Shown here piece after piece: positions 27,101-48,751 of a stretch of DNA of 64,000 nucleotides. Below the pieces are notes generated by a model. The model did not search any database, was not told where the DNA came from, and worked only from the letters and a program-made list of their open reading frames with translations. The stretch comes from a virus. Every line of letters starts with the position of its first letter. The first letter of the stretch is position 1. The stretch is from IMG/VR virus record IMGVR_UViG_3300020171_000728, positions 1 to 64,000 of that record. One strand, written 5' to 3'. A program made the position numbers and the translations under genes.

Positions 27101-29917
27101 ACTTTGACTAATTGATGGACTAATTGATGGACTTAAACTAGCACTAGGACTAACTGATGGCGAAATACTAGGACTGATTGATTGACTAATACTTGGACTT
27201 AAACTAGGTGACAATGAAGCTGACGGAGATACAGATGGACTTATCGAAGGACTTATCGATTGAGATAAACTTAGTGATAAGCTTGGCGACAATGACTGAC
27301 TAGGACTAACTGACGGAGAGATACTAGGACTTAAACTAGGCGAAATACTTGGAGATATACTTGGCGAAATTGATTGGCTTGGACTTTGCGAAGGACTTAT
27401 TGAGGGACTAATCGAAGGCGATAAACTTGGACTAATACTTGGCGATATACTTTGGCTAGGAGAAACTGACGGTGAAATACTTGGAGATAAACTAGGACTA
27501 ATACTGGGACTTATCGAAGGTGAAAGCGATTGGCTAGGTGAAACAGATGGACTTATAGATAGCGATATAGACGGACTTAGTGAGGGAGATAAACTAGGTG
27601 AAAGTGATTGCGATGGACTCACAGATGGGCTGATACTAGGACTAATAGATGAACTTAAACTTGGACTAATAGATTCTGAAATGGACGGACTAAGTGAAGG
27701 AGAAATACTGGAACTTGGACTTACGGACGGACTTATTGATGGACTAATACTTTGACTAATTGAAGGGCTTAATGATGGACTTAATGAGGCACTAGGAGAA
27801 ACAGATGGACTTATAGAAGGACTTACACTCTCTGAAAGAGATGGTGACAATGAAGGACTTAACGATGGGCTTAGAGAAGGCGATAAACTTTGTGATGGTG
27901 AGACAGACGGAGAGATTGATGGACTTAAACTTTGACTAATACTAGGACTTAGAGACGGACTTAAAGACTGACTTGGGCTTACAGATTGACTTATTGAGGG
28001 ACTTATTGACGGACTTAGGGAAGAAGACAAAGAAGGCGAGAGTGATGGACTCAATGAAGGCGACAATGATACTGAAGGACTAACAGATGGAGAAATAGAG
28101 GGAGATAAACTTTCCGATAAAGATGGACTTAAACTAGGACTTAATGATTGACTTGGACTTACAGATGGACTAATTGAAGGTGAAATACTTTGAGAAATAC
28201 TAGGACTTATACTAGGACTTAAACTTGGCGAGATAGATGGACTTATTGATTGACTTGGCGAAACTGAAGAACTAATACTAGGACTAATACTTTGGCTAAT
28301 ACTAGGCGAAATAGATTGAGAGATACTAGGAGACAGGGACGGAGAAATCGATACACTAGGGCTAACTGATGGACTGATACTTGGGCTTAATGATGGGCTT
28401 AGAGATGGGCTAATAGACGGACTAATAGAAGGGTCTGTATATGTTATTGCAAGATAAGGTATTGCATTAAAAGTACTCTCAAGACTTTCATAATTTCCAT
28501 TGGTTTGTGAATTATTAGTTGAATGAATTTTTATACCATAATTTGTTGAGACACCATCTTTCCAATCTTTGTATAATTGTGTAATATCAACTTCTTTCCA
28601 TCCAGATGAATTCAATGGTGGAAGACTTCCTCTATTAGTCGCATCTTCTGTTGGTAAATTTGTTCTAGTTAATGTAGCACCGGCCCAATCACTAGTAACT
28701 CTACGAACTTGTGCAAGTGGATCACTATTAGATGGTCCATTAACATAAATTCTTAAAACAACACTAGAAACATATACAGAAGCAGGTCCACTAGTAATAT
28801 CAAACTTTAGATAACTATGATACCAATCAGCCCATCCACCAAAGTTATTGATGGGGTCAGTATTATTGGGACCAGGTAAATAAGTAGTTCCATAATAAGT
28901 ATCATCATTTGTTAGAATAATATCAAATCCTGGTGAAGGACTTACAGAAGGCGAAATGCTTGTTGAAGGGCTTAAAGATGAAGACGGTGATACAGAAGGA
29001 CTGATGCTTGGAGAAAGCGAAACAGACGGAGAAACCGAAGGGGAAATAGAAGGGCTAATACTTGGACTTAAACTTGGAGACAAAGACGGTGAAAGTGATA
29101 CACTCGGAGAAACTGAAGGACTAATAGATAAACTTATAGATGGAGAAATACTTAAAGAAATACTTGGTGAGATAGATGGACTGATACTCGGTGAGATAGA
29201 AGCACTTGGACTTACACTTGGGCTAATAGATGGTGAAATAGAAGGACTAATACTTGGAGATACAGATAGTGAAATGCTTGGTGATATAGAGGGCACTATT
29301 CCTGCTTCCCAAGCCAGTCCTCTCATTCCATTAGCACCAAAGTTAAAACTATCAAGGACAGTTGAAGAAAAACCAGAAAATTTCCAAACATATTCACTTC
29401 CTCCCCACCCACCTTGGCTACTCATTAAATTATTATCACCCCAAGCTAAACCAGAACACGCCAGTGATTTTGTAAAACTATCAGTAATAGTAGATGTTAA
29501 TCCTGAATGTTTACGGTGAGAGGATGGATCAGCTCCAGTGACGGAATAAAGATTAGAACCATCATAACAAATACCTCTCGCATTAAAGGCAAAACTATCA
29601 AGAACTGTAGTAGAAAATCCAGAACGCTTCTTTATACCAAGGGTTTCATTTGAAGTCCAAAGATTTCCACTAATCCAAGCAAGTCCTCTTGCATCAACAG
29701 AAGAAATAGAATCAAGAATTGTAGAACTAAATCCTGAATGTTTTGTTATTTTATCTGTAGCAGCTCCACTATTTAAAAGAAATCCAGCAGGATCCCAACC
29801 AAGACCAGACACGTCCGAATCTGGTGCTACAAAACTATCAAGGCAAGTAGTGCTAAACCCAGAGAATTTAAAACATTTATCAACATCAGATGTATTAGCG
29901 TATAAATAATTAGCCAT
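24158..29917 (-). CDS. giant Ser-Pro repeat (mucin-like) protein: N-terminal 5x about 40-aa repeats, SPS[ILVQ] tracts, one globular domain, about 1400 aa of SPS[ILVQ] repeats, C-terminal 4x GHTTLLTRD
   Basis: Uninterrupted 1919-aa ORF. N-terminus has five KxSGFS(S/T)T(I/V)LDSF units. Residues about 330-490 form a non-repetitive beta-rich domain. About 75% of the protein is SPSISPSVSPSQS-type repeats. The final 36 aa are encoded by a 27-bp x4 tandem repeat. Confidence 0.7.
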   Translation of the reverse strand: MANYLYANTSDVDKCFKFSGFSTTCLDSFVAPDSDVSGLGWDPAGFLLNSGAATDKITKHSGFSSTILDSISSVDARGLAWISGNLWTSNETLGIKKRSGFSTTVLDSFAFNARGICYDGSNLYSVTGADPSSHRKHSGLTSTITDSFTKSLACSGLAWGDNNLMSSQGGWGGSEYVWKFSGFSSTVLDSFNFGANGMRGLAWEAGIVPSISPSISLSVSPSISPSISPSISPSVSPSASISPSISPSISPSISLSISPSISLSISPSVSPSVSLSPSLSPSLSPSISPSISPSVSPSVSLSPSISPSVSPSSSLSPSTSISPSVSPSPGFDIILTNDDTYYGTTYLPGPNNTDPINNFGGWADWYHSYLKFDITSGPASVYVSSVVLRIYVNGPSNSDPLAQVRRVTSDWAGATLTRTNLPTEDATNRGSLPPLNSSGWKEVDITQLYKDWKDGVSTNYGIKIHSTNNSQTNGNYESLESTFNAIPYLAITYTDPSISPSISPSLSPSLSPSISPSVSPSVSISPSLSPSISQSISPSISQSISPSISSSVSPSQSISPSISPSLSPSISPSISQSISPSISPSVSPSQSLSPSLSPSLSESLSPSISPSVSPSVSLSPSLSPSLSPSLSSSLSPSISPSISQSVSPSQSLSPSLSPSISQSLSPSISPSVSPSQSLSPSLSPSLSPSLSPSLSESVSPSISPSVSPSASLSPSLSPSISQSISPSISPSVSPSSSISPSLSPSISESISPSLSSSISPSISPSVSPSQSLSPSLSPSLSPSISLSISPSVSPSQSLSPSISPSISPSLSPSISPSVSPSQSISPSISPSLSPSISPSISPSQSPSQSISPSISPSISPSLSPSISPSVSPSQSLSPSLSLSLSQSISPSISPSVSPSASLSPSLSPSISQSISPSISPSVSPSASLSPSISPSISQSISQSISPSVSPSASLSPSISPSISQSLSPSLSQSLSPSLSPSISPSVSPSASLSPSLSPSLSPSISPSLSQSLSQSISPSISPSVSPSQSISPSISPSLSASLSPSISPSVSPSASISPSISPSLSPSLSPSLSPSISQSISPSVSPSQSLSPSLSPSLSQSLSPSISPSVSPSQSISPSISPSISPSISPSISPSVSPSQSISPSLSPSISQSISPSISPSVSPSQSISPSLSPSISPSISPSISTSVSPSTSISPSISQSISPSISPSISPSVSPSQSLSPSLSPSLSPSISPSISQSVSPSASLSPSISPSISLSLSPSLSLSTSPSQSLSPSLSPSLSPSLSQSISSSVSPSVSISPSLSPSLSPSISPSISPSISPSISQSVSPSESLSPSISPSISPSVSPSKSLSPSLSPSLSQSLSPSISPSVSPSESLSPSLSPSLSPSLSPSISPSVSPSESLSPSISPSISSSISPSVSPSVSISPSISPSISPSVSPSVSISPSISPSISLSISPSISPSISPSISPSISPSVSPSVSLSPSVSPSISPSISPSFSPSISPSVSPSVSISPSLSPSVSPSVSPSISPSISPSVSPSVSISPSVSPSLSPSISPSISPSISPSISPSISPSVSPSVSISPSISLSLSPSISPSISPSISPSVSPSVSISPSLSPSISPSISPSLSPSISPSLSPSISPSVSPSVSISPSISPSISPSISLSISPSVSPSISISPSISPSLSPSISPSISPSISPSISPSISPSVSPSVSISPSISPSISSSISPSISPSISPSLSSSISPSVSPSVSISPSISLSISPSISPSLSPSISPSVSPSVSISPSLSPSLSPSLSPSISPSISPSVSPSVSLSPSISPSISPSLSPSISLSISPSISPSVSPSVSLSPSLSPSLSPSLSPSVSPSVSISPSLSPSISPSVSPSVSIGGHTTLLTRDGHTTLLTRDGHTTLLTRDGHTTLLTRQ

Positions 29918-31688
29918 TTTTACTTAAAAGTTTAGCTACATTTAATAGGTCTATCCTTACCCAATGAGAACAAACATATTCCCAATGTGCCCAAACCTTA
30001 AATCTGTTATTTTTTGCTTTTTGACAAAAATAGAAATCTAAACCTAATTCTTGAATTCCATCTTCCGACCATTTTCTTTCAAATGGTGCTTTTACTTTTT
30101 CTAAAACCCTACGAGCTATTAACATACATCCACTTCCAATAGCATCGACCTCTTTTAATCCACCTCTTTTTTCTATTGGAACTTGTTTATATCCATCTTC
30201 TACTCTATCCATAACAACCCAATACATATCATCTTCATGCCATTGAGGACATACACCACCTATTACATCTTTATCTAATTCTACTAAATCCAAAATGTTT
30301 TTTGTAGGGATAATATCGCTATCTATCATTAAGAGATAATCATAATCGGTTTCCAAAAATTCTTTAACTATCAAATTACGATTATTATCTATTGTTTTTC
30401 TTGCTGGTGTTCTTGTTTTAGTTTCATATCTTGGGTCATCTTCTAACATTCTCATATAATAATGCAATGACGGGTGTATATTCCATTCATTAGGTATAGC
30501 TACATAAACTTTTTTCTTATTTTGTAAATTTTGAATCATACCCTTATTGTTATATTTAGTATTCAAATATTCTATATTTTTTTTCGCTATCTGTTCCATA
30601 TTTGGGATAGTTTTAATAGTGGTTCTGTGATGATGGGTTACTATAATAGATGTATTTAAACACAATTTATATCCTTCTTTCTTTATTCTAGTACAATAAT
30701 CATTATCATCTCCCATCCCAATTTCTATATTTTCATCCAATAAACCAATTTTATTTATAACTTCTCTTTTTATTAAACAACAAAAGAAAGCTAAATATTC
30801 TCCTGTCCATTTTTCTTTATAATGACCAAAATACTGTTCTTGATCAATAGCAGATGAAAGAGGTCCAACCGCTCCAACTTCAGTATTTTCAGCACTTTCT
30901 TTTAACATATCCAACCATCCTTCAGAAACTTCAGTATCATTATTCAAAAGAACTACATCATTTTTAGATACTTTTAATCCTTGATTAGTTGCAACAACAA
31001 AACCTTGATTAGTATCACTATCTATTATTATAATTTCTGGAAGTCTGTTTAGTTCTTCAAGATATTTACTAGTTCCATCCGTCGAACCATTGTTAATAAT
31101 GATTAGATTATAATTTTTAGTATTTTTTTGAACACTTTTAATACATTTTTGAGTATATTCAAGCTGGTTAAAAACTGGAATTATTATATCTATTGTTTTA
31201 TTCATAATTTTAGTAGCTTCAATGATAATATCTCTTCCTTCTTTTTCTGTTTCTATTGAATTAATTTCTAATTCTGGAAATCCTTCAAGATATTTTTCAA
31301 TAATTTGTTTATTAAATCCCCACCCATGTTGATTATTTTCATAACCTTGTCCTCCGTAAATAAAACGCAATGCTATATCAAGATTTCCTTTCTTCAATTC
31401 AGACATAGCATAATCTAAATCGGGCAACATTAATACTAATTTTCCTCCTGGTTTCAGAATCCGAATCCATTCTTTTAATACTGGTATTATTTCATTTTTA
31501 TTAAAATGTTCTAATAAATTTGAAGAATAAACTAAATCATAACTTTCATCATCTTTGGGTATTTTTCTAGCATCAGCAATAATGGTAGGATTAACATCTT
31601 TATGAAGGTCTAAATAATCAAATTGATAACCACCAATAACTTTTTTATCTTGACCACAGCCAATATCAATCGCTTTTAAATTACTCAT
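29910..31688 (-). CDS. fusion protein: class I SAM methyltransferase + GT2 glycosyltransferase + C-terminal GT-like domain
   Basis: IDIGCGQDKK (MTase motif I), LKPGGKLVL; then IIIPVFNQ...INNGSTDGT...NNDTEV (GT-A DxD region). Confidence 0.55.
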   Translation of the reverse strand: MSNLKAIDIGCGQDKKVIGGYQFDYLDLHKDVNPTIIADARKIPKDDESYDLVYSSNLLEHFNKNEIIPVLKEWIRILKPGGKLVLMLPDLDYAMSELKKGNLDIALRFIYGGQGYENNQHGWGFNKQIIEKYLEGFPELEINSIETEKEGRDIIIEATKIMNKTIDIIIPVFNQLEYTQKCIKSVQKNTKNYNLIIINNGSTDGTSKYLEELNRLPEIIIIDSDTNQGFVVATNQGLKVSKNDVVLLNNDTEVSEGWLDMLKESAENTEVGAVGPLSSAIDQEQYFGHYKEKWTGEYLAFFCCLIKREVINKIGLLDENIEIGMGDDNDYCTRIKKEGYKLCLNTSIIVTHHHRTTIKTIPNMEQIAKKNIEYLNTKYNNKGMIQNLQNKKKVYVAIPNEWNIHPSLHYYMRMLEDDPRYETKTRTPARKTIDNNRNLIVKEFLETDYDYLLMIDSDIIPTKNILDLVELDKDVIGGVCPQWHEDDMYWVVMDRVEDGYKQVPIEKRGGLKEVDAIGSGCMLIARRVLEKVKAPFERKWSEDGIQELGLDFYFCQKAKNNRFKVWAHWEYVCSHWVRIDLLNVAKLLSKNG

Positions 31689-32152
31689 TTTATTATATCT
31701 TTGGGTAAATATTTTTTAATATCAAAGGGTTTTGTTTTGTTTATACCTATTTCTTCATTATCTGGATCAATTGCATTTTTTTCTTTTTGTGTTAAGACTT
31801 CTCCTTTAATTGCTTTAGCACAAATTTTAATAACTTTTTCTTGGTCGGTAATTTGTTCTACTTGTGGGCTAGAAAATTTCTTACCAAATTCATCGGCCTC
31901 TATTTCATTAATTTCCCAACATTGTCCAGTTGCTATAGCTTTATCAACTAAAGTATTATCATAAACAACAGCTAGTTTAGTGACATAAGTCCCTTTTTCA
32001 TCTTGTCCCTTTTCTGTCTCATCGCTTTCTACAAGCCATTGTGTTTTAGTATCGGTTAAACCAATAGGATAACCTCCACTATAAGAAGTACCACCTTCTG
32101 TTTTTGTATAATAAATTTTTGCTTTAATTATTTTGCTCATTATTCTATCCAC
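31685..32152 (-). CDS. hypothetical protein
   Basis: 155-aa ORF. Confidence 0.3.
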   Translation of the reverse strand: MDRIMSKIIKAKIYYTKTEGGTSYSGGYPIGLTDTKTQWLVESDETEKGQDEKGTYVTKLAVVYDNTLVDKAIATGQCWEINEIEADEFGKKFSSPQVEQITDQEKVIKICAKAIKGEVLTQKEKNAIDPDNEEIGINKTKPFDIKKYLPKDIIK

Positions 32153-32805
32153 TTTTTATAGACAGCATCTACGTCATCTATAAGATGCTCATAGGTACGT
32201 CTATCAAGTGTTTTTTTACTATTTAAACTATATAAATTATATTTTTCAATAGCTTCTTTTAATGATTGGATTGTGTAATGTTTTATTCTTAAATCAGATT
32301 TAATAACTTGTCCAGTTAATCCCTTAATCATTCCTGAATGCCCCGAATATTGTATTGAATCATCCCAATAAATTTTAGATTGATTTCTAAATAACCTAAC
32401 TTGACCATTTTCGGAGAATTGTTTCCAATTTCTATCAATGCGATAATATTTTTTTGAATTAACAAATGGGAATATCCTAAAACAAAAACCAGATACTTTG
32501 TTATTTAATAATTTAATTAACTCCGTTTTAGCTTTTTCTTCAAAAACTTCATCGGCATCCATCCATAAAATCCATTCTGGATTTAATTTTTTAACCATTT
32601 CTAATGCTAATTTTTTATCTTTTCCATCATGTAATCCTTCTGTCTTTTCAATGGTAACATTCTTATATTCTTTTAATATTTCTAATGTCTTATCTGTCGA
32701 ACCATTATCAACAATACAAAAATGATTAACAAAAAGGAGATTGTCTAAACATCTTCTAATATTCTTTTCCTCATTTTTAACTCTTAATTGGCAAACTAGT
32801 TTCAT
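32140..32805 (-). CDS. GT2 family glycosyltransferase
   Basis: QLRVKNEEKNI...VDNGSTDKT and a downstream DAD(E) motif. Confidence 0.5.
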   Translation of the reverse strand: MKLVCQLRVKNEEKNIRRCLDNLLFVNHFCIVDNGSTDKTLEILKEYKNVTIEKTEGLHDGKDKKLALEMVKKLNPEWILWMDADEVFEEKAKTELIKLLNNKVSGFCFRIFPFVNSKKYYRIDRNWKQFSENGQVRLFRNQSKIYWDDSIQYSGHSGMIKGLTGQVIKSDLRIKHYTIQSLKEAIEKYNLYSLNSKKTLDRRTYEHLIDDVDAVYKKWIE

Positions 32806-33116
32806 AATTTTTAATTCTTATATAGCCCATTAAGTACGGAAAAAAGAGAAAGGGGTTCTACAAAACTCTTCTATCCGCAGTAAATAAATTTACTAAAGCG
32901 AATAGACTTTGTCCATTTCATAACTTAATTATTTATATAATAAATTATTAAATAAAAAATCACGTTCAATTTGAAATAAACAGAAGTTTATTTCGCAATT
33001 TATCATAATAATAAACAATAAGAACGTGAATCCGTTTCAAAAAAGTTGTCTACTAATTGCTATTTTGACTTAATTTTATTATACAATCTTAAACTATTGG
33101 GTCAAATATTAAAAAA

Positions 33117-33143
33117 CCCACTAGGATAATAGTGGGCTTTTAT
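33117..33143 (-). terminator. hairpin terminator-like element (CCCACTA-GGATAA-TAGTGGG) with flanking A/T runs
   Basis: 7-bp stem; A6 on one side and CTTTTAT on the other; sits next to a TTGACCC promoter-like element and a GTGCAC palindrome. Confidence 0.4.
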
Positions 33144-33179: not shown

Positions 33180-33707
33180 TTGTCTTTTTGTTTTTGGTAT
33201 ACTTGTGTTATGAACATCAATAATCTTCTTGTCATAAACAATGTCGCTCCTGAATCTATTAATCGAATCTTCCGTAAGATTAGAATTGACCAAAAAACTG
33301 GTTGTTGGAATTGGAATGGTTCTCTTAATAATGGATATGGTGAAATTCGGATTAATAAAAAAATTTATAAAGTTCATCGTTTTATGTATGCTTGGCTTGT
33401 CGCTTCTATTCCAAAAGGTAAGGGAAAAAATATTCCTGTACTTGATCACATTTGTAACAATAGACAATGCTGTAATCCATCTCACCTTAGACTTGTTTCT
33501 GATACCGAAAATATCCTTAGAGGAGATGGAATAACCGCACGAAAAGCACGACAAACTCATTGTAAGAATGGACACTTATTACCTCCTGTTATCAATGGAC
33601 ATAGACGTTGTATGATTTGCCATCGTGCTTGGAATCGTAGAAATTATGCCAAAAATCCTATGAAATTTATACTAAAGGTTAGAGAGAGACGACTCCGACT
33701 CAAGTAA
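33180..33707 (+). CDS. HNH homing endonuclease (NUMOD4/HNH_3-type)
   Basis: CWNWNGS...NGYG...HRFMYAW...DHICNNRQCCNPSHL; a plus-strand gene embedded in the minus-strand glycosyltransferase block. Confidence 0.6.
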   Translation: MSFCFWYTCVMNINNLLVINNVAPESINRIFRKIRIDQKTGCWNWNGSLNNGYGEIRINKKIYKVHRFMYAWLVASIPKGKGKNIPVLDHICNNRQCCNPSHLRLVSDTENILRGDGITARKARQTHCKNGHLLPPVINGHRRCMICHRAWNRRNYAKNPMKFILKVRERRLRLK

Positions 33708-34652: not shown

Positions 34653-35241
34653 ATATTTGAAAATATTCTGTCCAATACTCCCTTTCTCTATTTATTTTTA
34701 CATTACACTTAAGACAAAGGGTATTCAAATTATTTTCTTTACAATTACTTTTATCAAAATCTATATGATTTACACATAGTACTCTATTTAATTCTTCTAA
34801 TTCTTCTCTTTCTGTTTTACCGCATAAACAACAAATGAAATTATCTCTTGTCCTAATCTTTAATTTTAGTTCAGAATTAAATTCTTTTGGATATGGATTA
34901 TTAGAAAGACCATCTCGCCAATTTGGATTATTTTTTCCGCTCTTTGCTTTACTCATTTTTTCTCTGACTTCTAGACGATTTACTGCTATTTTTATCGATT
35001 TTTTCTGTTTTGCCTTAGTTATTTTAGATGCTTTTTTACCTAATCTAAATTGTCTTATTTTCTCTCTGACTTCTGGTCTTTTTGATGGATTATCTTCACC
35101 CATACATTTACCCTTGCGATTTCGTCTAATTTTCTCTTTAGCTTTTTTAGATTGTTTTTTACCCAACATCGCTTTATAACCTCTATGACCTTTTATAAAC
35201 CAGCTTTTATTTATTCCATTTTTTGGTATTCCAGTTGGCAT
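34645..35241 (-). CDS. HNH homing endonuclease with NUMOD3 repeats
   Basis: NPSKRPEVREKI and NRLEVREKMSKAKSGKNNPNW (NUMOD3); C-terminal CCLCGK...CVNHID...NL..LC..CN HNH motif. Confidence 0.6.
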   Translation of the reverse strand: MPTGIPKNGINKSWFIKGHRGYKAMLGKKQSKKAKEKIRRNRKGKCMGEDNPSKRPEVREKIRQFRLGKKASKITKAKQKKSIKIAVNRLEVREKMSKAKSGKNNPNWRDGLSNNPYPKEFNSELKLKIRTRDNFICCLCGKTEREELEELNRVLCVNHIDFDKSNCKENNLNTLCLKCNVKINREREYWTEYFQIYE

Positions 35242-42484: not shown

Positions 42485-43238
42485 TTAAATGTTCTTCACA
42501 CTCTTTTCTAATTTGTTCCTCTGTAATATTATGATGCTGTATAGTCATTCTTTTTTCTAAATTATTTTTACTTTGTCGTTCTTTTCTACCAGCTATTCGT
42601 CTTTCTATTGCAATATCAACATCAACCATTGCCCAATGTGCTCCAAGAAAATTATCAATGGAAATAATAACATCTTTATTTTCTCTATAACGATCATTAC
42701 CTATACCTAAAACAATATTTACTTGAGGTTTAAAAACAATCGGTTTGTTGTATAATGCGTTCATCCCTTCTGTGATATTTGTATCACCATGACACCTTTG
42801 TGTTTTTATTGATAGATTTGCATCTAAATCTGTGTCTGTAATATGCCTATATGTTTGCCACATTTGTGCATATAAAAGATTGCCTTTCTGTTTTGATAAA
42901 AATTCTTTTGGTTCTTCATCTCTACATGGCCATATAAATTCATCTGAATCTACAACATATACCCAATCGCAATCTAATTTCTTTGTGATTTCATTAATTT
43001 TATTTACTTTTAGTATATCATCCATCATATCAGGAAATGTAAAATCTTCAATTTCAACATTAGAATATTGGGAACATATTTCCCTAGTATTGTCATTAGT
43101 ATCCGCATCTAATAATAAGTGTATCTTGTCAACATATTTATAGTGATTCAAAAAGAAAGGAGCTAACTTTTCTTCATTATACCACATTGTTACAATTTCA
43201 ATTTTCATTTGTTTTTTATATCTTTTTTGTTTGCCCAT
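42465..43238 (-). CDS. glycosyltransferase-like protein (GT-A fold, MWYNEE family)
   Basis: IVTMWYNEEKLAPFFLNHY...DADTNDNT resembles GT-A nucleotide-sugar transferases. Confidence 0.35.
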   Translation of the reverse strand: MGKQKRYKKQMKIEIVTMWYNEEKLAPFFLNHYKYVDKIHLLLDADTNDNTREICSQYSNVEIEDFTFPDMMDDILKVNKINEITKKLDCDWVYVVDSDEFIWPCRDEEPKEFLSKQKGNLLYAQMWQTYRHITDTDLDANLSIKTQRCHGDTNITEGMNALYNKPIVFKPQVNIVLGIGNDRYRENKDVIISIDNFLGAHWAMVDVDIAIERRIAGRKERQSKNNLEKRMTIQHHNITEEQIRKECEEHLNDPKLW

Positions 43239-43774
43239 ACCAAAGAAAATACAGGTTCAGATATTTTATTAAATGTTTCATCAATGGCTTTTTTAACACC
43301 ATCATGTTTTATATTTTCTCTATAGTATTTATCATAATCATGAAAGGCTATTGTGCCATTTTCTTTTAATTTGGGTAAACATACCCTAATATCTTCTTTA
43401 ATGCTTTTATAATCATGCATACCATCTATAAAAATAAAATCAAATTTAATATCTATTTGTGGAACAATTTCTTCTGATTTGCCGATATATGTTGTAATGT
43501 TTTTCCAACCTAAAATATTAGATCTAAATTGTTCAAGTGTTGTAAATTTATCTAATTGAGTTATTCCCTCTCCATCTGCCATAAATGTATCAACACTATA
43601 AACTTGTTTAGCAACTTCGGCCATACATATAGTTGTTTTCCCCATAAAACTACCTATTTCCAAACACACTTTATCCATTGCTAATTCTTGTAATTGAATA
43701 CATTCTTTTTTATCATAAATAAAGCCATGTATTTCTTCCCATTTTCTTCTTTTGATTGTATATTTTTCATTCAT
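43205..43774 (-). CDS. class I SAM-dependent methyltransferase (TylF/Methyltransf_24-like)
   Basis: CLEIGSFMGKTT...FIFIDGMHDY...GTIAFHDY. Confidence 0.55.
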   Translation of the reverse strand: MNEKYTIKRRKWEEIHGFIYDKKECIQLQELAMDKVCLEIGSFMGKTTICMAEVAKQVYSVDTFMADGEGITQLDKFTTLEQFRSNILGWKNITTYIGKSEEIVPQIDIKFDFIFIDGMHDYKSIKEDIRVCLPKLKENGTIAFHDYDKYYRENIKHDGVKKAIDETFNKISEPVFSLVWANKKDIKNK

Positions 43775-44654
43775 ATTTTTTATCCTTTTTAATATCTTCC
43801 CTATAATTACTAGGGTCCCATGTTAATCTATTTTTTTCTATTTCTTTAATTGTTAATTTTTTATCATAAATTTCTATATCTTTTTCTGATAATCTTGGTA
43901 ATTTATGTTTTTTAAATAATGTTAAATTTCCTTGAGAAAATTTTTCTTTTTTTGTTTTTAAATATTCCCTTTCTATTGGTATAATCATTCCACAATATTT
44001 ACAATATCTATTTACTTGATCTTGAAAATCTTTAGGTTCTTTTTTCCACCAATCTTTTTCAACTGGATAACCACCGGGGCCATCTAAAATAGAATCTATC
44101 GCATATGCTATTTCACAGAAAAATGCACCTTTTGGAGAAATAGTTGGACACCATGTTTTTTGTACCCAACAATCATCAATAAGTTGTTTCCTATATTTTT
44201 TATCTTTTATAACATCTTTGATAGCTATTGTCATGGGTTGATGCCTACATGTGCCTTGTTGATAGTCATTATGTTCATTGTAAGCAGTAAAACTAAATGT
44301 TTGAGCAATTAATTCTTTATACTCCTCATATTTAATACCTCCTGTAGTAAATAACTCAAATTTCTTTTTAAGTCCCATTTCTTGTATAATCAAACATATT
44401 TCCTTAAATTGTGGATGTAATGTTGGTTCACCGCCAATAATTCCAATTCTACTTGGCCATCCTTCCAATGAATCAAGAGCTTTTTTAAAGAAATCTAAAT
44501 CCATAAAAAATCTTTGGTCTTGTCTAGTGTGTCTAATATACCGCGAGCAATATATACAATCCTTATTGCATATATTTGTTATATCAATTTGACACAACCA
44601 TGCTTTTTGAATTGGTTTCATATTATTTATTGTATAAATTATCAAAATATTCAA
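43767..44654 (-). CDS. radical SAM enzyme with SPASM-like C-terminal Cys cluster
   Basis: ITNICNKDCIYCSRY contains the CxxxCxxC radical SAM motif; GGEPTLHP glycine-rich SAM-binding motif; C-terminal C...C...CKYCG cluster. Confidence 0.6.
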   Translation of the reverse strand: MNILIIYTINNMKPIQKAWLCQIDITNICNKDCIYCSRYIRHTRQDQRFFMDLDFFKKALDSLEGWPSRIGIIGGEPTLHPQFKEICLIIQEMGLKKKFELFTTGGIKYEEYKELIAQTFSFTAYNEHNDYQQGTCRHQPMTIAIKDVIKDKKYRKQLIDDCWVQKTWCPTISPKGAFFCEIAYAIDSILDGPGGYPVEKDWWKKEPKDFQDQVNRYCKYCGMIIPIEREYLKTKKEKFSQGNLTLFKKHKLPRLSEKDIEIYDKKLTIKEIEKNRLTWDPSNYREDIKKDKKYE

Positions 44655-45279
44655 ATTCTTTTAAATTTAATATTTCTTTACGATTTATATCTAAATCCTT
44701 ATAAGTCATATTATCAATATCATTAATTGAATAATTAAGCATATCTTCTGGCTTACCTCTTGTAATAACTCCAACTCCATAATCTTCATTCACAACAAAA
44801 ATATTTAAATCATTTTGTGTCGACCTTAATCTAATAATAGTTTTCCACACATTACCACACCAAAGACCATTCCAACCATCCATTTTTTCTGCTTTTTCTA
44901 TTGGTATAGTCGCACTAACTTTTGTAGTAGGGCTACAATCATGTATAATAATTACACCACCATTATTTAGGTATTGTAAACAATTATTAAAATCTTTTAA
45001 TGATTGTTTATATGTATGCATTCCATCAATAAAAGCAACATCTATGCCATTCTTAATACAAACATCAGAATGTTCTTCAAAAAAAGTATCACTAGTCATC
45101 TTAAAAAACTGACTTGTTATATTATCACATAAATGAGCTATTTGAGACTTTGGATCTATAGCTATTTTTCTTTTTATTTTGATAGGAAAGAAAGTTATAC
45201 CACCTTCTACACCAACTTCTATGTATGTTTTTGCCTTTATTCTATCTATTACTGATTGTATAATATCTAATCTATTCAT
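44623..45279 (-). CDS. class I SAM-dependent methyltransferase (TylF/Methyltransf_24-like)
   Basis: YIEVGVEGG...VAFIDGMHTY...VIIIHDC. Confidence 0.5.
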   Translation of the reverse strand: MNRLDIIQSVIDRIKAKTYIEVGVEGGITFFPIKIKRKIAIDPKSQIAHLCDNITSQFFKMTSDTFFEEHSDVCIKNGIDVAFIDGMHTYKQSLKDFNNCLQYLNNGGVIIIHDCSPTTKVSATIPIEKAEKMDGWNGLWCGNVWKTIIRLRSTQNDLNIFVVNEDYGVGVITRGKPEDMLNYSINDIDNMTYKDLDINRKEILNLKEFEYFDNLYNK

Positions 45280-45332: not shown

Positions 45333-46127
45333 TTATTTACAATATAAATTCATTCCTTCTTTATATTTTTTAAAATTCTCTAAAATTAAATAGTGAGATT
45401 CATCTTTCATTTTTCTAACATTTTGATATAAATACTTACCACTATTATTAATCAATTCCTTATAATCTTCTGGACAATTTGGGAATATTTCACAATGATA
45501 CATTTTAACACCACAATCAGAATGTCTGCAAATATATTTAAATTTAAAACCAGATAGTTCAACTCTTTCTTTGTAATCAAGGTCTTCCCATAAAAAAGGA
45601 CCATACTCTTCGTTCCAATAACCTATCTTATTAATAACTTTTCTACTAATCATCATAACACAACCAGTGAAGGTTTCACATAAACCTATTCCGTTTACAC
45701 TCTCCATAACTTTTCTTCTATTTGCCATAGTAACAAACCCCAAATCTAAAGATGTTAAAACATTTTCATATTTTATAAGCCATTCTTTATCTACAAAAAC
45801 AACATCATCATCTACTTTTATAACATAATCACCTGAACATTGTCTGAATATATGATTGAGATTTTTGGGATAATGATTATCTTTTAAATAATATACCTTT
45901 AATCCTTTAATTTCTTTTAAAAAGTTTAAGTCTTCTTCTTTGGGATAATACATAACATCTCTAAATCGTTCATCATCCACTACGCCCATATGTATATTAA
46001 CTATTCTATCACCAAAATTACATTTCAAAAGTGATTTTATACATTCTCTAAAAAATGGGTATCTTTGAATAGGTGCTACTATTACAATATCATGAGTTGT
46101 TTTTTTTAATGACATTTTATTTATCAA
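45333..46127 (-). CDS. GT-A-fold glycosyltransferase candidate
   Basis: HDIVIVAPIQRYPF...IKVDDDVVF (DxD) architecture. Confidence 0.4.
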   Translation of the reverse strand: MINKMSLKKTTHDIVIVAPIQRYPFFRECIKSLLKCNFGDRIVNIHMGVVDDERFRDVMYYPKEEDLNFLKEIKGLKVYYLKDNHYPKNLNHIFRQCSGDYVIKVDDDVVFVDKEWLIKYENVLTSLDLGFVTMANRRKVMESVNGIGLCETFTGCVMMISRKVINKIGYWNEEYGPFLWEDLDYKERVELSGFKFKYICRHSDCGVKMYHCEIFPNCPEDYKELINNSGKYLYQNVRKMKDESHYLILENFKKYKEGMNLYCK

Positions 46128-46836
46128 GAATAAGTTTCCATCCTCTTTTTATATATTCATCGAAAAGATTAAAACGTTCTTTATTGTGTTCTTTATTTAC
46201 AAGCCAGGATGCCACAGAATCACATCCATATTCCATTGCTTTTTTAGGGTCTGACCCCCATAAAGACTTATTTTTAATCGGATGTGGCGGAACATATGTC
46301 GGAATATTACCAAAAATCTGTGCATTAGCTGAAAGTTGTATATCTTCACCATTATTATGTTCAAGTATATCGTCAAACCACATATATTTTAGATTTTCTG
46401 TTCTTAAAAACCATGAATGTCCTCCAAAATCCACAAGAATTTCATTGTCTGATGGGTCTCCCCAACCTGGACAATGTTGTTTATTACTTTCTATATCAAC
46501 TATTCTACCATTTGTCACGCAAATACAATCGTGTTTTTTGATAGTATCAATGCAATTTAAATGCCAATCCTTACCAGGTACAGTGTCATCATCATAAAAT
46601 GCCACATATTCAGTATCCACCAATAGGCCAATAGCAAATCTTAAATGGAATTTCATATTCTTTGAAGAATATATTACATGGTCTATTTCCTTAGGATAAT
46701 TAAATTTTACTCCACCTTCATTTTGAACAACAATGATTTTTGAAGAAATAGTTTGATTCTTAATAGCTTCAAGTTGTTCTTGAAAATATTCTGGTCGTTT
46801 GTATGTTTGTAAAATAGTAGTTATATTTATTTTCAT
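46117..46836 (-). CDS. GT-A-fold glycosyltransferase candidate
   Basis: INITTILQTYKRPEY...AFYDDDT (DxD). Confidence 0.4.
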   Translation of the reverse strand: MKINITTILQTYKRPEYFQEQLEAIKNQTISSKIIVVQNEGGVKFNYPKEIDHVIYSSKNMKFHLRFAIGLLVDTEYVAFYDDDTVPGKDWHLNCIDTIKKHDCICVTNGRIVDIESNKQHCPGWGDPSDNEILVDFGGHSWFLRTENLKYMWFDDILEHNNGEDIQLSANAQIFGNIPTYVPPHPIKNKSLWGSDPKKAMEYGCDSVASWLVNKEHNKERFNLFDEYIKRGWKLILDK

Positions 46837-46838
46837 AT

Positions 46839-47807
46839 TTAATTCATATAAATATCATCCCATTTATATCCACTTTTTCCTGTTTCAATAACATTTAAAA
46901 GATTTTTAACTAGTGGCTTGTAATCAAAATATCTAAGAATAAATGCTTGCCCTCTTTTTGCAATCATTTTTCTTTCTCTTTCATTTTTAAGATAATATTG
47001 TATTTTTTCTTCCATTTCTTCAACTGTATCAAACCAATCTAAATGATAACCTCTTTTAAATATTTTGTCTATATTCCCAAAATTATGACACAAATAAAAT
47101 GTTCCACATGCCATATAGTTCCCTAGTCGGTCAGAAGACCATTTTACTGTATGGTTGAAACTATTAACACCAATTCCGATTTTTGTGCTATTTATCGCAT
47201 ATAAATATTCTGGGTCTCCTAGCCAACCAGACAAACCATACACCCTAGCATTTTTATATTTCAAAAGTTTATCAATCACTTCATTTCTCAAGTCATTATT
47301 CCCTGTAGATTTAGTCCCAGTCCATAAAATATCAGATTCCCATTCTGGCAAAGGTTTAATATCTTTATAATAATCAGAATCTGTAAAAGCGATTATAGAA
47401 CAAACTCCTTTCATATTAGGAAGTAAATGTTTTTTAAGATAATCTCCACCGAATGTTCCAAAAAAATAATCAATATGTTTATTATGTGCTAAGTCATGTT
47501 CTGTTGGTTCGATGCGAACATCTGCCGCCCATTTTACAAAAACTGCACCAGGGTGCATACTCCTTAACTGTTCTATCGTTTCTGGTAATATTCTCTCACA
47601 TTTTCCAAACCAAAAAATATCTGGCTTAATTTGCTCAGATATTTCTAATAATCTTTGATTAGGTTCAGGCTCAGCTCTGTAATCAATTCTTGTTACTTTA
47701 TATCCATTGGCTTCAAGCCCATTCGCAAAAACTTGGTCACCGCAATAAGGGCTTGCCTGATGAATATGTCTTGGGTTGTATACCCCGACTGTAATAGCTT
47801 TTTTCAT
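46839..47807 (-). CDS. glycosyltransferase-like protein (possibly GT-B/CgeB-like)
   Basis: 322 aa, Rossmann-like alternating pattern; weak. Confidence 0.3.
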   Translation of the reverse strand: MKKAITVGVYNPRHIHQASPYCGDQVFANGLEANGYKVTRIDYRAEPEPNQRLLEISEQIKPDIFWFGKCERILPETIEQLRSMHPGAVFVKWAADVRIEPTEHDLAHNKHIDYFFGTFGGDYLKKHLLPNMKGVCSIIAFTDSDYYKDIKPLPEWESDILWTGTKSTGNNDLRNEVIDKLLKYKNARVYGLSGWLGDPEYLYAINSTKIGIGVNSFNHTVKWSSDRLGNYMACGTFYLCHNFGNIDKIFKRGYHLDWFDTVEEMEEKIQYYLKNERERKMIAKRGQAFILRYFDYKPLVKNLLNVIETGKSGYKWDDIYMN

Positions 47808-47820: not shown

Positions 47821-48087
47821 TTATCGATAGATTACATATGCCTTAGGCGATGTGCCTGTAAGCGTTGCGTATAAACCAGTTGCCGCTTTAACCCCTGGTT
47901 GTGTTATTGTAAAAATTTCAGTTGTATTGGCAGCAGCTTTTAATGTTGCTAAAACACTACCGCTTCCATCAGAACTATCATCTACTGCCACGCTGGCAGC
48001 GTCAGAACCAGCTGTAAGAATTATGGAAGATAAACGTGTATTCCCAGTAACTACAAGTCCAGATGTTGTTTTTTCTACACTAATCAT
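47821..48087 (-). CDS. small Ser/Thr/Ala-rich protein
   Basis: 88-aa ORF, beta-rich composition. Confidence 0.25.
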   Translation of the reverse strand: MISVEKTTSGLVVTGNTRLSSIILTAGSDAASVAVDDSSDGSGSVLATLKAAANTTEIFTITQPGVKAATGLYATLTGTSPKAYVIYR

Positions 48088-48751
48088 TTTTATTCTCTCC
48101 TTTCATTAACTCAATTTGTTTTAAAAAATCTACTTGATTTATTATCGGTGGATCGCCTATGTGCCCGATTTCTATAGATGGATCGCAATAAATTTTATAA
48201 CCCCCCTTTTTGGCTTTTTGACAGAATCTCATATCCACCGACCAATGTTTTCCTTCTGAATCATAATCCGTCCAAAACCATGGATATTTTATTTTTTTGA
48301 AAACTTCTGTTTTAATAAGTAGAACAGAAGAACCTATCGCATCAACTTCGCAAAATTTATTTGGAAGAATCGGGAAATACTGTTTATCTCTTTTGGCGTA
48401 TACGCATGGAGCAAAATCTCCTCTACGTTTAAATGCCAATACTCCTATAATGTCTTTGTCATGTTCATTTAATCTAAAATAAACATCTGGCGGAATTGTC
48501 ATATCGTCATCGATCATTAAAATCTTTTCATACTCGTAATCAGTGTCTTCTAATACTTTTTGAACAATTTGATTACGAGCAAAATCTATCATTACTCTTG
48601 GCAACCAAACAACTTTTGTATTTTCAGGAATTCCTATTGTCATTAATGAACTAGCAAATCTATAATCTACTGTTCCTAATGTTGGTATTCCTATAACTAA
48701 TTTTGATTTTATTTTTTGTCTCATAGACTGTTTGTCTTGAGGTCTCTCCAA
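48080..48751 (-). CDS. GT2 family glycosyltransferase
   Basis: LVIGIPTLGTVDYRF...ILMIDDDMTIPP (DxD). Confidence 0.5.
   Translation of the reverse strand: MERPQDKQSMRQKIKSKLVIGIPTLGTVDYRFASSLMTIGIPENTKVVWLPRVMIDFARNQIVQKVLEDTDYEYEKILMIDDDMTIPPDVYFRLNEHDKDIIGVLAFKRRGDFAPCVYAKRDKQYFPILPNKFCEVDAIGSSVLLIKTEVFKKIKYPWFWTDYDSEGKHWSVDMRFCQKAKKGGYKIYCDPSIEIGHIGDPPIINQVDFLKQIELMKGENKND

What the first reader, a model, noticed from the sequence alone, without database searches (positions are those of the whole stretch)
29910..48751. About 19 kb sugar-biosynthesis / glycosyltransferase island inside the virion structural module, next to a giant Ser-Pro repeat protein
Seen in sequence: at least 10 ORFs have GT-A/GT2 signatures (DxD, NNGSTDG-type motifs). 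At least four have class I SAM-methyltransferase motifs of the TylF/Methyltransf_24 type. One has a CxxxCxxC radical-SAM motif. A 920-aa fusion ends in a UDP-GlcNAc 2-epimerase-like domain. All sit co-directionally between the major capsid gene and the head-tail genes. Paralogous pairs (33672/38462 and 35243/37576, plus the three MTases) indicate in-situ expansion. Inference: directly downstream lies a 1919-aa protein that is about 75% SPS[ILVQ] repeat, and the tail fibre carries the same repeat, so the island may build methylated or otherwise modified glycans onto these proteins. That would be a phage-encoded mucin-like virion glycoprotein system. The alternative reading is a lysogenic-conversion module that modifies host surface polysaccharide.
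Basis: partly seen in the sequence, partly recalled or inferred. Interest (0 to 1): 0.85.

Follow-up and report, generated by a model that had tools for sequence, protein, structure and literature searches.

The report
Probable phage virion glycosylation island
An uncultivated phage carries a 19 kb block of sugar-transferring and methylating enzymes inside its capsid/tail gene module, next to virion proteins bearing long Ser-Pro-Ser repeat tracts. This most likely means the phage coats its own particle with sugars, a behaviour proven so far only in a few mycobacteriophages.

Summary
Window 29910-48751 (minus strand) has 10 ORFs with glycosyltransferase (GT) domains, 3 Methyltransf_24 proteins, 1 Methyltransf_11 domain, a radical-SAM protein and a GT2-GT2-WecB epimerase fusion. 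It also holds two homing endonucleases. It lies between the major capsid gene and a Mu gp36-like adaptor.

Directly downstream is a 1919-aa protein that is 42% Ser and 72% S-x-S-x repeat. The tail fibre starts with the same repeat.

New evidence:
- GT genes after the capsid gene are conserved across the clade (3 to more than 20 genes) and absent from distant capsid relatives.
- In relatives the SPS or poly-Ser tract sits on decoration-protein C-termini, tail-tube C-termini and tail-fibre N-terminal or internal regions.
- Of six phage proteins found only by their SPS repeat, four lie beside capsid genes and GT/methyltransferase clusters.
- No island protein has a membrane segment.

Best reading: cytoplasmic O-glycosylation of virion proteins, with Ser-rich tracts as acceptors and the giant protein as a mucin-like fibre. 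This is a new variant of actinobacteriophage virion glycosylation. No experiment supports it yet, and some relatives have islands without visible SP repeats.

The parts
48080..48751 (-). Core GT-A glycosyltransferase, directly after the capsid gene (the 'o48080 family')
   Evidence: Invariant DDD motif in 21 homologues. AF2 model pLDDT 90. Best PDB neighbours are STIV A197, Mimivirus R699, COLGALT1, LH3 and ppGalNAc-T2. It follows the capsid gene in nearly all relatives with capsid identity of 45% or more.
47821..48087 (-). Conserved 88-aa protein of unknown function, always paired with the core GT
   Evidence: No Pfam or PHROG match. Homologue adjacent to the core GT in L012, L018 and L052.
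46839..47807 (-). GT-B-like glycosyltransferase (Glyco_trans_1_2)
   Evidence: Pfam E 4.8e-19. Conserved second island gene in many relatives.
46117..46836 (-). GT2-like protein (weak match), conserved in relatives
   Evidence: Pfam GT2 E 8e-4, below the cut-off. 52-69% identical homologues in L013, L020, L023 and L054-L067.
45333..46127 (-). GT2 glycosyltransferase
   Evidence: Pfam E 1.5e-7.
44623..45279 (-). Methyltransf_24 SAM methyltransferase
   Evidence: Pfam E 7.7e-12.
43767..44654 (-). Radical SAM enzyme, subfamily unresolved
   Evidence: Pfam Radical_SAM E 3e-11. All NCBIfam matches are far below their cut-offs.
43205..43774 (-). Methyltransf_24 SAM methyltransferase
   Evidence: Pfam E 1.8e-17.
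42465..43238 (-). GT2-type glycosyltransferase (Glyco_tranf_2_4)
   Evidence: Pfam E 2.8e-6.
39722..42484 (-). 920-aa fusion: two GT2 domains plus a non-hydrolysing UDP-GlcNAc 2-epimerase (WecB type)
   Evidence: Pfam Epimerase_2 E 7.5e-88 and GT2 E 7e-46 in 2 stretches. NCBIfam wecB 291 bits against a cut-off of 210.
38462..39274 (-). GT2 glycosyltransferase, paralogue of 33672-34652
   Evidence: Pfam E 1.9e-11. blastp 30% identity, E 4e-33.
37576..38214 (-). Candidate GT-A-like protein, paralogue of 35243-35968
   Evidence: blastp E 1e-17. Conserved E-x-D motif. hhalign to the core GT family gives only 41% probability.
37148..37579 (-). Free-standing HNH_3-AP2 homing endonuclease; a passenger, not a sugar enzyme
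   Evidence: Pfam. PHROG 99 E 1.4e-36.
36562..37128 (-). Unknown 188-aa protein with a methyltransferase motif-I-like 'ILELGTG'
   Evidence: No family match. hhalign to the Methyltransf_24 paralogues is not significant.
35981..36565 (-). Methyltransf_24 SAM methyltransferase
   Evidence: Pfam E 3.1e-16.
35243..35968 (-). Candidate GT-A-like protein, paralogue of 37576-38214
34645..35241 (-). Free-standing HNH/NUMOD3 homing endonuclease; a passenger
   Evidence: Pfam NUMOD3. PHROG HNH endonuclease E 1e-11.
33672..34652 (-). GT2 glycosyltransferase
   Evidence: Pfam E 6.9e-12.
33078..33141 (-). Terminator-like hairpin (12-bp stem plus T run) followed by a promoter-like site (11 of 12 matches). 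It may split the island into two transcription units.
   Evidence: Overall site counts are no better than shuffles, so this is only suggestive.
32140..32805 (-). GT2 glycosyltransferase; first gene of the overlapping run that ends in the giant gene
   Evidence: Pfam E 3.3e-16. Gene overlaps.
31685..32152 (-). Unknown 155-aa protein
   Evidence: No significant family match.
29910..31688 (-). Trifunctional fusion: Methyltransf_11 + GT2 + core-GT-like domain. Its stop overlaps the giant gene's start by 8 nt.
   Evidence: Pfam. C-terminal domain is 37% identical to 48080-48751. Best PDB sequence hit for the GT2 domain is 5HEA, deposited as 'Putative glycosyltransferase (GalT1)', E 1e-10.
29285..29917 (-). 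Giant protein aa 1-211: five-bladed beta-propeller
   Evidence: Five repeats of about 43 aa. AF2 pLDDT 92 with 20 strands. Fold matches to generic propellers, including one from an S-layer protein. Stand-alone homologues lie downstream of the tape-measure gene (L014) or in a run of BNR/PKD-domain genes (L016/L017) on other presumably viral contigs.
28979..29284 (-). Giant protein aa 212-313: short SPS[ILV] repeat tract
28424..28978 (-). Giant protein aa 314-498: CBM96 / DNRLRE carbohydrate-binding-type domain
   Evidence: Pfam CBM96 E 5.7e-15. NCBIfam DNRLRE_dom 64.5 bits against a cut-off of 34.
24272..28423 (-). Giant protein aa 499-1882: long SPS[ILVQ] repeat tract, proposed O-glycosylation stalk
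   Evidence: All six Ser codons are used. DNA self-similarity is at most 0.535, against 0.78 for the protein at lag 26 aa.
24158..24271 (-). Giant protein C-terminus: four copies of GHTTLLTR[DQ]. Proposed docking motif; function unknown.
   Evidence: Related basic T-x-L-L-T-K/R motifs end the proteins in the same gene slot in L004, L001 and L059, and fill a 93-aa ORF in L005.
23131..24090 (-). 319-aa protein that bounds the insertion slot; probable head-tail adaptor
   Evidence: Weak Pfam Phage_Mu_Gp36 match, E 0.015. Conserved synteny with the neck gene 22594-23046.
14666..14950 (-). N-terminal SPS[ILV] tract (about 95 aa) of the 1153-aa tail protein 11489-14950
   Evidence: Homologues in L004 and L005 carry poly-Ser tracts instead.
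48839..50640 (-). Major capsid gene (Mu gpT-like), upstream boundary of the island. It is interrupted by an 864-nt intron-like insertion at 49499-50362.
   Evidence: PHROG 371. Exon mapping against L018.

Best explanation
The island is a phage-encoded, cytoplasmic glycosylation system that acts on the phage's own virion proteins.

Proposed mechanism (inferred):
- Soluble Leloir-type GTs (about 12 GT domains) use host nucleotide sugars.
- The WecB domain would supply UDP-ManNAc from UDP-GlcNAc.
- The GTs build O-linked oligosaccharides that four SAM methyltransferases, and possibly the radical-SAM enzyme, then decorate.

Proposed acceptors (inferred): Ser-rich low-complexity tracts, SPS[ILV] here and poly-Ser in some relatives. 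This phage group appends them to surface-exposed ends of virion proteins.

In this phage the tracts are the first 95 aa of the tail fibre and a 1919-aa protein built like a serine-rich-repeat adhesin. From N to C that protein has a beta-propeller, a short repeat, a CBM96 domain, a repeat of about 1380 aa, and a basic C-terminal motif that may dock it to the particle. Fully extended, the repeat could project the binding domains hundreds of nanometres as a mucin-like fibre.

Shown: the enzyme domains, the absence of membrane segments, the conserved position, the recurrence of the tracts on virion proteins, and their co-occurrence with GT clusters.

Inferred: that the tracts are the acceptors, that the giant protein is in the virion, and what the glycan does (shielding, adhesion or stability).
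For: 1. Enzyme content is confirmed.

2. No island ORF reaches the hydrophobicity of a membrane helix, and neither does the giant protein. No phage-encoded flippase, polymerase or polyprenyl-phosphate transferase is therefore visible.

3. The slot between capsid gene and gp36-like adaptor holds GT genes in nearly all relatives with capsid identity of 45% or more. The size ranges from 3 genes to at least 10 kb. Capsid relatives at 42% identity or less go straight to connector genes.

4. Ser-rich tracts sit on the following virion proteins:
- Decoration-protein C-termini in L012, L018/L051 and L052.
- Tail-tube C-termini in L128/L129 (SPS type) and L004/L005 (poly-Ser).
- Tail fibres in the window, L004 and L005.
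- Giant proteins in the window and L004.

5. Proteins retrieved only by the repeat are a small globular domain plus an SPS tail. In 4 of 6 phage contexts they lie next to a capsid gene and a GT/methyltransferase/epimerase cluster (L133, L135, L137, L138).

6. The repeat is maintained at protein level, not DNA level.

7. The giant gene overlaps the methyltransferase-GT2-GT fusion gene by 8 nt.

8. Precedent:
- Mycobacteriophages carry O-linked glycans at capsid and tail-tube C-termini, made by phage GTs (Freeman 2023, as cited in PMC12619734, PMC11600133 and PMC13445384).
- Cluster J phages have 8-10 genes with 5 GTs and a methyltransferase between the capsid and connector genes (PMC3706429).
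- BAKA gp11, the first GT after the BAKA capsid gene, is a weak homologue of the core GT.
Against: - No glycan has been observed. All evidence is genomic association.
- Several relatives have islands but no visible Ser-rich tract: L001 and L057 (same contig), L059/L130, and L078/L079. Not all their virion genes are in view.
- Two SPS-tailed proteins have no GT within 10 kb (L134, L139).
- Poly-Ser and Ser-Pro tracts can serve as plain flexible linkers.
- GT-A and GT2 folds do not reveal the acceptor type.
- The window's proteins have no detectable similarity to the first 40 kb of Corndog, which includes its GT genes.
- Presence of the giant protein in the virion is unproven.
Confidence: 0.55

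Rival explanations
1. The GTs glycosylate virion proteins, but at other sites such as the capsid protein or short termini, as in mycobacteriophages. The Ser-rich tracts would then be unglycosylated flexible linkers or spacers, and their co-occurrence with GT clusters would reflect shared lineage or host.
For: Islands exist without visible Ser tracts (L001, L059/L130, L078/L079). In L004 and L005 the Ser tracts also act as inter-domain linkers inside tail fibres. Corndog and BAKA capsid and tail proteins lack long repeats.
Against: The tracts are mostly terminal appendages, not linkers. Examples are decoration and tail-tube C-termini ending in '...SPST*'. They recur next to GT clusters in phages with different portal and terminase Pfam types. 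A repeat of about 1380 aa is far longer than any linker needs.
Confidence: 0.15
2. The island modifies host envelope glycans such as wall polysaccharide, teichoic acid or S-layer glycan. The purpose would be superinfection exclusion or lysogenic conversion.
For: GT2 domains give weak sub-threshold matches to teichoic or teichuronic acid, EPS and O-antigen enzymes. WecB supplies UDP-ManNAc, a common wall-polymer precursor.
Against: No membrane-spanning protein, flippase, polymerase or lipid-carrier transferase is encoded in the island. No integrase was found among the ORFs scanned. The genes run in the same direction as, and interleave with, late head and tail genes at a position conserved across the clade. 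More than 20 genes is excessive for seroconversion.
Confidence: 0.1
3. The island hypermodifies phage DNA by glycosylating and methylating hydroxymethyl-pyrimidines, to evade restriction.
For: Phage GT arrays that hypermodify DNA are known (Pyle et al., listed). The genome carries a DNA methylase.
Against: No hydroxymethylase, TET/5mYOX or other base-activating enzyme was found among the window ORFs scanned. The island sits in the head module, not with the replication genes. About 6 kb of the 70 kb source contig lies outside the window.
Confidence: 0.07
4. The genes are auxiliary metabolic genes that reprogramme host nucleotide-sugar metabolism, or that make a free polysaccharide, with no covalent link to the virion.
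For: Viral GTs and nucleotide-sugar enzymes are commonly reported as auxiliary metabolic genes in groundwater viromes (PMC10980836).
Against: Only one nucleotide-sugar enzyme is present against about 12 transferase domains. There is no export machinery. The tight, conserved placement after the capsid gene is not explained.
Confidence: 0.08

Closest known systems
Mycobacteriophage virion glycosylation (Che8, Corndog and others; Freeman et al. 2023) and the Cluster J GT insertion between capsid and connector genes (Pope et al. 2013, PMC3706429)
   Same: Phage-encoded soluble GTs plus an O-methyltransferase lie inside or next to the structural module. In Cluster J they fill exactly the same slot between capsid and head-tail connector genes. 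The targets are capsid and tail-tube termini. The first GT after the BAKA capsid gene is a weak homologue of the core GT, 20% identity, E 6e-4.
   Different: - Size: 19 kb and 22 ORFs here, against 4-10 genes.
- Extra functions: WecB epimerase fusion, radical SAM, GT-B enzyme.
- Long genetically encoded Ser-Pro-Ser or poly-Ser tracts (30 to about 1400 aa) on virion proteins, and a giant mucin-like protein. Corndog and BAKA capsid and tail proteins have no such repeats.
- No detectable similarity to the first 40 kb of Corndog, which includes its GT genes.
- Low-GC uncultivated phage with an unknown host.
Serine-rich repeat adhesins of Gram-positive bacteria (GspB, Fap1, SraP, PsrP) with their GtfA/B glycosylation and accessory Sec system, and the SdgA/SdgB-glycosylated Ser-Asp repeat proteins (PMC3794999)
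   Same: Alternating S-x-S-x repeats. The domain order is short repeat, ligand-binding region, very long repeat, C-terminal anchoring element. Dedicated GTs are encoded beside the substrate gene. Cytoplasmic O-glycosylation happens before assembly or export (established knowledge of serine-rich repeat adhesins). The NCBIfam 'serine-rich protein' and MSCRAMM repeat models hit the tract by composition. The best PDB sequence hit of the fusion GT2 domain is entry 5HEA, 'Putative glycosyltransferase (GalT1)'; its link to the Fap1 pathway is my recollection, not a tool result.
   Different: No signal peptide, no LPXTG motif and no SecA2/SecY2 genes in the regions examined. No GtfA/GtfB pair. The repeat is Ser-Pro-Ser-[ILV], not Ser-Ala/Val/Glu/Thr or Ser-Asp. 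The protein is phage-encoded within a virion module. This is a functional analogy, not family membership.
Glycosylated capsids and fibrils of archaeal and giant viruses (STIV A197 GT; Mimivirus R699 and collagen-type GTs; chloroviruses)
   Same: The virus encodes its own GT-A enzymes for structural-protein glycosylation. The predicted fold of the core GT is closest to STIV A197, then Mimivirus R699, COLGALT1 and LH3.
   Different: Sequence identity is only 10-20%. The host domain and virion architecture differ. The GT-A fold is generic.

Membership tests
Actinobacteriophage-type virion glycosylation system | Phage-encoded soluble GT(s) with an adjacent methyltransferase | tested here: met
   Pfam and NCBIfam domains. 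No membrane segments.
Actinobacteriophage-type virion glycosylation system | Genes placed within the structural module (Cluster J: between capsid and head-tail connector genes) | tested here: met
   Island lies between capsid gene 48839-50640 and adaptor/neck genes 22594-24090. Compared with BAKA and Corndog maps and PMC3706429.
Actinobacteriophage-type virion glycosylation system | Sequence homology of the GTs to the mycobacteriophage enzymes | tested here: inconclusive
   The core GT matches Cluster J gp11-type GTs at 20% identity, E 6e-5 to 6e-4. No window protein matches Corndog positions 1-40000 at E below 1e-3.
Actinobacteriophage-type virion glycosylation system | O-linked glycans demonstrated on capsid or tail proteins | not testable with these tools
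   Needs glycoproteomics of particles or of recombinant proteins.
Serine-rich repeat adhesin / accessory Sec system | N-terminal signal peptide and C-terminal LPXTG cell-wall anchor | tested here: not met
   The N-terminus is not hydrophobic (maximum KD19 of 1.19, and not at the N-terminus). The C-terminus is 4 copies of GHTTLLTR[DQ] with no LPXTG.
Serine-rich repeat adhesin / accessory Sec system | GtfA/GtfB GT pair and SecA2/SecY2/Asp genes beside the substrate gene | tested here: not met
   No such domains among the island or flank ORFs scanned. Only one GT-B-like protein (Glyco_trans_1_2) is present.
Serine-rich repeat adhesin / accessory Sec system | Domain order: short repeat, binding region, long repeat | tested here: met
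   SPS tract aa 212-313, CBM96 aa 367-492, SPS tract aa 499-1882.
Lipid-carrier-dependent seroconversion or O-antigen / teichoic acid modification (Gtr, Wzx/Wzy) | Integral-membrane flippase, polymerase or bactoprenol-linked GT | tested here: not met
   No island ORF has a 19-residue window with mean Kyte-Doolittle hydropathy of 1.6 or more. No such Pfam families were found.
Lipid-carrier-dependent seroconversion or O-antigen / teichoic acid modification (Gtr, Wzx/Wzy) | Temperate phage with an integrase, and a moron-like position near the attachment site | tested here: not met
   No integrase among the window ORFs scanned. The island is in the late head module. About 6 kb of the source contig is unseen.
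Phage DNA hypermodification glycosyltransferase systems | A base-activating enzyme (dCMP/dUMP hydroxymethylase, or 5mC methyltransferase plus TET/5mYOX) with GTs near the replication genes | tested here: not met
   None among the window ORFs scanned. Only an N6/N4 DNA methylase at 6321-7073 was found.

The most novel reading that the evidence does not exclude
Several lineages of uncultivated phages, which differ in portal and terminase Pfam types, may use a modular, genetically portable Ser-Pro-Ser (or poly-Ser) tag. At least one related contig comes from a 0.1 µm groundwater fraction. The tag would work as a programmable O-glycosylation acceptor. It is attached to decoration proteins, tail tubes, fibres or giant stand-alone proteins, and is serviced by a fast-evolving GT/methyltransferase island after the capsid gene. 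In this phage the system would have produced a 1919-aa mucin-like virion fibre that converges on the architecture of bacterial serine-rich repeat adhesins.
Probability: 0.4. Interest if true: 0.8.

Novelty: new variant of a known kind. Interest (0 to 1): 0.6.

Why it matters
Virion glycosylation has been shown experimentally in only a few mycobacteriophages, where it alters antibody recognition.

If this reading is right, self-glycosylation is widespread among environmental phages. It would be far more elaborate than known, with more than 10 transferases and methylated sugars. It would also use a recognisable sequence tag, which would make glycosylated virion proteins predictable from sequence alone.

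The reading also points to very long mucin-like fibres on phage particles, relevant to adsorption, aggregation and persistence. It offers a compact tag-plus-enzyme toolkit for cytoplasmic O-glycosylation of recombinant proteins. Finally, it warns against scoring such GT clusters in viromes as host-metabolism genes.

Tried and rejected
- Rfam on the island (E up to 0.1): nothing, so the 250-450 nt gaps are not recognisable introns or RNAs.
- Promoter and terminator scans: counts equal those of shuffles. Only the 33078-33141 pair looks notable.
- PDB sequence searches for 48080-48751 and 46839-47807: no hits. The radical-SAM protein got only a marginal hit, so its subfamily stays open. An anSME-like role is unlikely, because the repeat lacks the S-x-P-x-R motif (my reading of the sequence).
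- hhalign of 36562-37128 against the Methyltransf_24 paralogues: not significant. It is not counted as a methyltransferase.
- hhalign of the 35243/37576 family against the core GT family: 41% probability only. These are kept as candidates.
- tblastn of all window proteins against Corndog positions 1-40000: nothing.
- The Freeman 2023 paper is not held and was cited through papers that cite it.
- Host assignment: the closest genome records are metagenome-assembled genomes (MAGs) labelled Patescibacteria, Woesearchaeota or Nanoarchaeota. They carry the phage head module itself, so they are probably binned phage contigs, not host evidence. DnaN and a CHAP lysin indicate a bacterial host.
- The apparent Ser-rich hits in the high-GC outgroup loci were out-of-frame artefacts or short S/T/G-rich stretches inside other proteins, none an SPS-type tract.

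Full report
**Context**

The window is part of a low-GC (about 30%) tailed-phage genome. From about 9.5 to 57.2 kb the genes run on the minus strand in this order:
- Mu-type portal, 55592-57244.
- Protease/scaffold fusion, 51074-53167.
- Decoration-like protein, 50640-51053.
- Mu gpT-like major capsid gene, 48839-50640.
- The island, 29910-48751.
- A 1919-aa protein, 24158-29917.
- A 319-aa protein with a weak Mu gp36 (head-tail adaptor) match, 23131-24090.
- Neck protein, 22594-23046.
- Tail tube, tape-measure protein, distal tail protein (Dit).
- A 1153-aa tail protein, 11489-14950.
- A CHAP-domain lysin.

The nearest cultured phages are very distant: at most 32% identity in the portal.

**Check of the observation**

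- Ten ORFs carry glycosyltransferase (GT) domains, about 12 domains in all.
- There are three Methyltransf_24 proteins and one Methyltransf_11 domain.
- There is one radical-SAM protein.
- The 920-aa GT2-GT2 fusion ends in a domain that passes the curated cut-off for non-hydrolysing UDP-GlcNAc 2-epimerase (291 bits against 210).
- The two paralogous pairs are real but old, at about 30% identity.

Two ORFs inside the island are free-standing homing endonucleases. Four are unknowns. Two of those unknowns (35243, 37576) have an E-x-D motif and a weak profile match to the GT-A core.

The 1919-aa protein is 42% serine and 72% S-x-S-x repeat. The tail protein begins with about 95 aa of the same repeat.

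The repeat uses all six Ser codons. Its DNA self-similarity peaks at only 0.535, while the protein reaches 0.78 at a 26-aa period. It is therefore kept by selection on the peptide and is not a recent slippage or assembly artefact.

**Is it a polysaccharide or seroconversion pathway?**

No island protein, and not the giant protein, has a segment hydrophobic enough for a membrane helix. The tape-measure protein and a small lysis-region ORF do have such segments, which serves as a positive control. No flippase, polymerase or polyprenyl-phosphate transferase family was found, and no integrase among the ORFs scanned. No base-activating enzyme for DNA hypermodification was seen either. These results argue against the two classical roles of phage GTs.

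**Synteny**

I collected more than 100 related loci. I mapped window proteins onto them. Results:
- In nearly every phage whose capsid protein is 45% or more identical, the gene right after the capsid gene is a homologue of 48080-48751. It is usually followed by an 88-aa protein, the Glyco_trans_1_2 protein, the 46117-like protein, an epimerase and a variable set of GTs and methyltransferases.
- Island size varies widely. L078/L079 have three genes, where the island runs directly into the adaptor gene. L018/L051 and L020 have at least 10 kb. The window has 19 kb.
- Content differs even between phages whose capsids are 90-95% identical (L018 against the window).
- One clade member (L074) has no island.
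- Capsid relatives at 42% identity or less go straight from capsid to connector genes.

The island is therefore an old, rapidly diversifying occupant of one fixed slot in the head module.

**The core enzyme**

The 48080 family has an invariant DDD motif and a confident GT-A model with pLDDT 90. Its nearest solved structures are the STIV virus GT A197, Mimivirus R699, the human collagen galactosyl- and glucosyltransferases, and polypeptide GalNAc-transferases. Many of these act on proteins, but the GT-A fold is generic, so this is only suggestive. The C-terminal domain of the methyltransferase-GT2 fusion 29910-31688 is a second copy of this family. That gene's stop overlaps the giant gene's start by 8 nt.

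**The Ser-rich tracts**

Ser-rich tracts recur on undoubted virion proteins of relatives:
- Decoration proteins of L012 (two of three paralogues), L018/L051 and L052 end in 34-86 aa of SPS[ILV] repeat.
- The tail tube of L128/L129, 79% identical to the window's, ends in 32 aa of it.
- L004 and L005 have poly-Ser tails on the tail tube and poly-Ser tracts in the tail fibre.
- L004 has two giant poly-Ser proteins in the same slot as the window's giant.

The window's own decoration and tail-tube proteins lack the tract. It therefore moves between virion proteins.

**Independent test of the association**

I searched 5.8 billion proteins with 157 aa of pure repeat. The hits are small globular domains with SPS tails. 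I looked up seven on long contigs. The choice depended only on the repeat.
- Six are on phage contigs and one is on a cellular contig.
- In four of the six phage contexts (L133, L135, L137, L138) the protein lies beside a GT/methyltransferase/epimerase cluster. In three of these a capsid gene (Phage_capsid_4) is also called nearby; no capsid family is on record for L138.
- These contigs differ in portal and terminase Pfam types.

**The giant protein**

Its domains, from N to C:
- A five-bladed beta-propeller, aa 1-211 (pLDDT 92).
- A 100-aa SPS tract.
- A CBM96/DNRLRE domain.
- A 1380-aa SPS tract.
- Four copies of GHTTLLTR[DQ].

Stand-alone homologues of the propeller lie downstream of the tape-measure gene (L014), or in a run of BNR/PKD-domain genes (L016/L017), on other presumably viral contigs.

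The same gene slot in relatives holds other large proteins: 2432 aa in L001, 1213 aa in L059, 982 aa in L005 and 1016 aa in L004. Their bodies differ, but those of L001, L059 and L004 end in a similar basic T-x-L-L-T-K/R motif. In L005 the motif lies instead in a 93-aa ORF just downstream of the 982-aa protein. I interpret the motif as a docking element, but that is untested.

The order short repeat, binding domain, long repeat, anchor mirrors bacterial serine-rich repeat adhesins. However, there is no signal peptide, no LPXTG motif and no accessory Sec or GtfA/B genes. This is an analogy, not membership.

**Comparison with known systems**

Mycobacteriophages carry O-linked glycans on capsid and tail-tube C-termini, made by phage GTs with an O-methyltransferase. 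This is Freeman 2023, read through papers that cite it.

Cluster J phages have 8-10 genes with five GTs and a methyltransferase exactly between the capsid and connector genes (PMC3706429; BAKA map). BAKA gp11 is a weak homologue of the core GT.

The kind of system is therefore known. What differs here:
- The scale.
- The extra chemistry (WecB, radical SAM, GT-B).
- The long encoded Ser tracts. Corndog and BAKA capsid and tail proteins have none.
- The giant mucin-like protein.
- The spread over uncultivated phage lineages.

Full-text searches for a described phage mucin-like or SP-repeat virion glycoprotein found nothing.

**Verdict**

Virion-protein glycosylation is the best explanation (confidence about 0.55), and Ser-rich tracts are the likely acceptors. 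The island is older and more widespread than the SP repeat, and some islands occur without visible repeats. Everything rests on genomic association.

Novelty: a new variant of a known kind. Interest: 0.6.

Noticed in passing
window 49499-50362 (minus strand), within the capsid gene 48839-50640: The major capsid gene is interrupted by a clean 864-nt insertion that carries a LAGLIDADG endonuclease ORF (49556-50260). There are two sub-threshold Rfam group I intron hits (27 and 23.5 bits; E 1.4e-4 and 1.6e-3). Relatives (L012, L013, L018) have an uninterrupted gene, and the exon ends align to L018 nt 278/280.
   Followed up: partly
window 981-2590 (+): A Ro60/TROVE-like protein (510 aa) is followed 5 nt later by a tRNA-Met-like gene. 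This may be a phage Ro60 with a tRNA-like Y-RNA partner.
   Followed up: no
window 4569-5714 (+): TnpB / IS605 OrfB-type protein (OrfB_IS605 plus Cas12f1-like TNB domain) inside the phage genome.
   Followed up: no
window 189-677, 15162-15755, 20688-21518, 34645-35241, 37148-37579, 49556-50260: An unusually high load of homing endonucleases (LAGLIDADG, HNH, HNH-AP2, NUMOD3) is scattered through the structural module and the island.
   Followed up: no
window 57300-64000: About 7 kb with no ORF above 200 aa, higher GC (0.40 at 58-60 kb) and reversed GC skew. It has a 25-nt tandem repeat of 5.6 copies at 57997-58135 and GGTTTCAC repeats at 59680-59737. No terminase gene is visible in the window.
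   Followed up: no
window 24158-24271; L004 about 5080-5197; L001 end of ORF 15588-22886; L059 end of ORF 14267-17905; L005 9592-9873: A shared basic motif [KRH]-T-x-L-[LIV]-T-[KR], often repeated, lies at the C-terminus of otherwise unrelated giant proteins occupying the same gene slot. In L005 it forms a separate 93-aa ORF. Its function is unknown.
   Followed up: partly
L012 6703-8840: Three tandem paralogues of the decoration protein. Two carry SPS tails and one does not.
   Followed up: partly
L021-L025 (genome-contig hits): Metagenome-assembled genomes labelled Patescibacteria, Woesearchaeota, 'uncultured archaeon' and Nanoarchaeota contain homologues of this phage's core GT. L021-L024 also carry its head module and are probably phage contigs binned into ultra-small-cell genomes. 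L025 matches only the core GT and the C-terminal domain of 29910-31688.
   Followed up: partly
L136 1217-1690: A cellular contig (TatA/TatC, Rho, LysM-M23 peptidase) encodes a 157-aa protein with an N-terminal SPS repeat. The repeat is therefore not restricted to phages and may also occur in host-lineage proteins.
   Followed up: no
window 30001-46000: Island GC content (0.26-0.31) is lower than in the flanking head and tail genes (0.33-0.35) and much lower than in the repeat gene (0.41).
   Followed up: no
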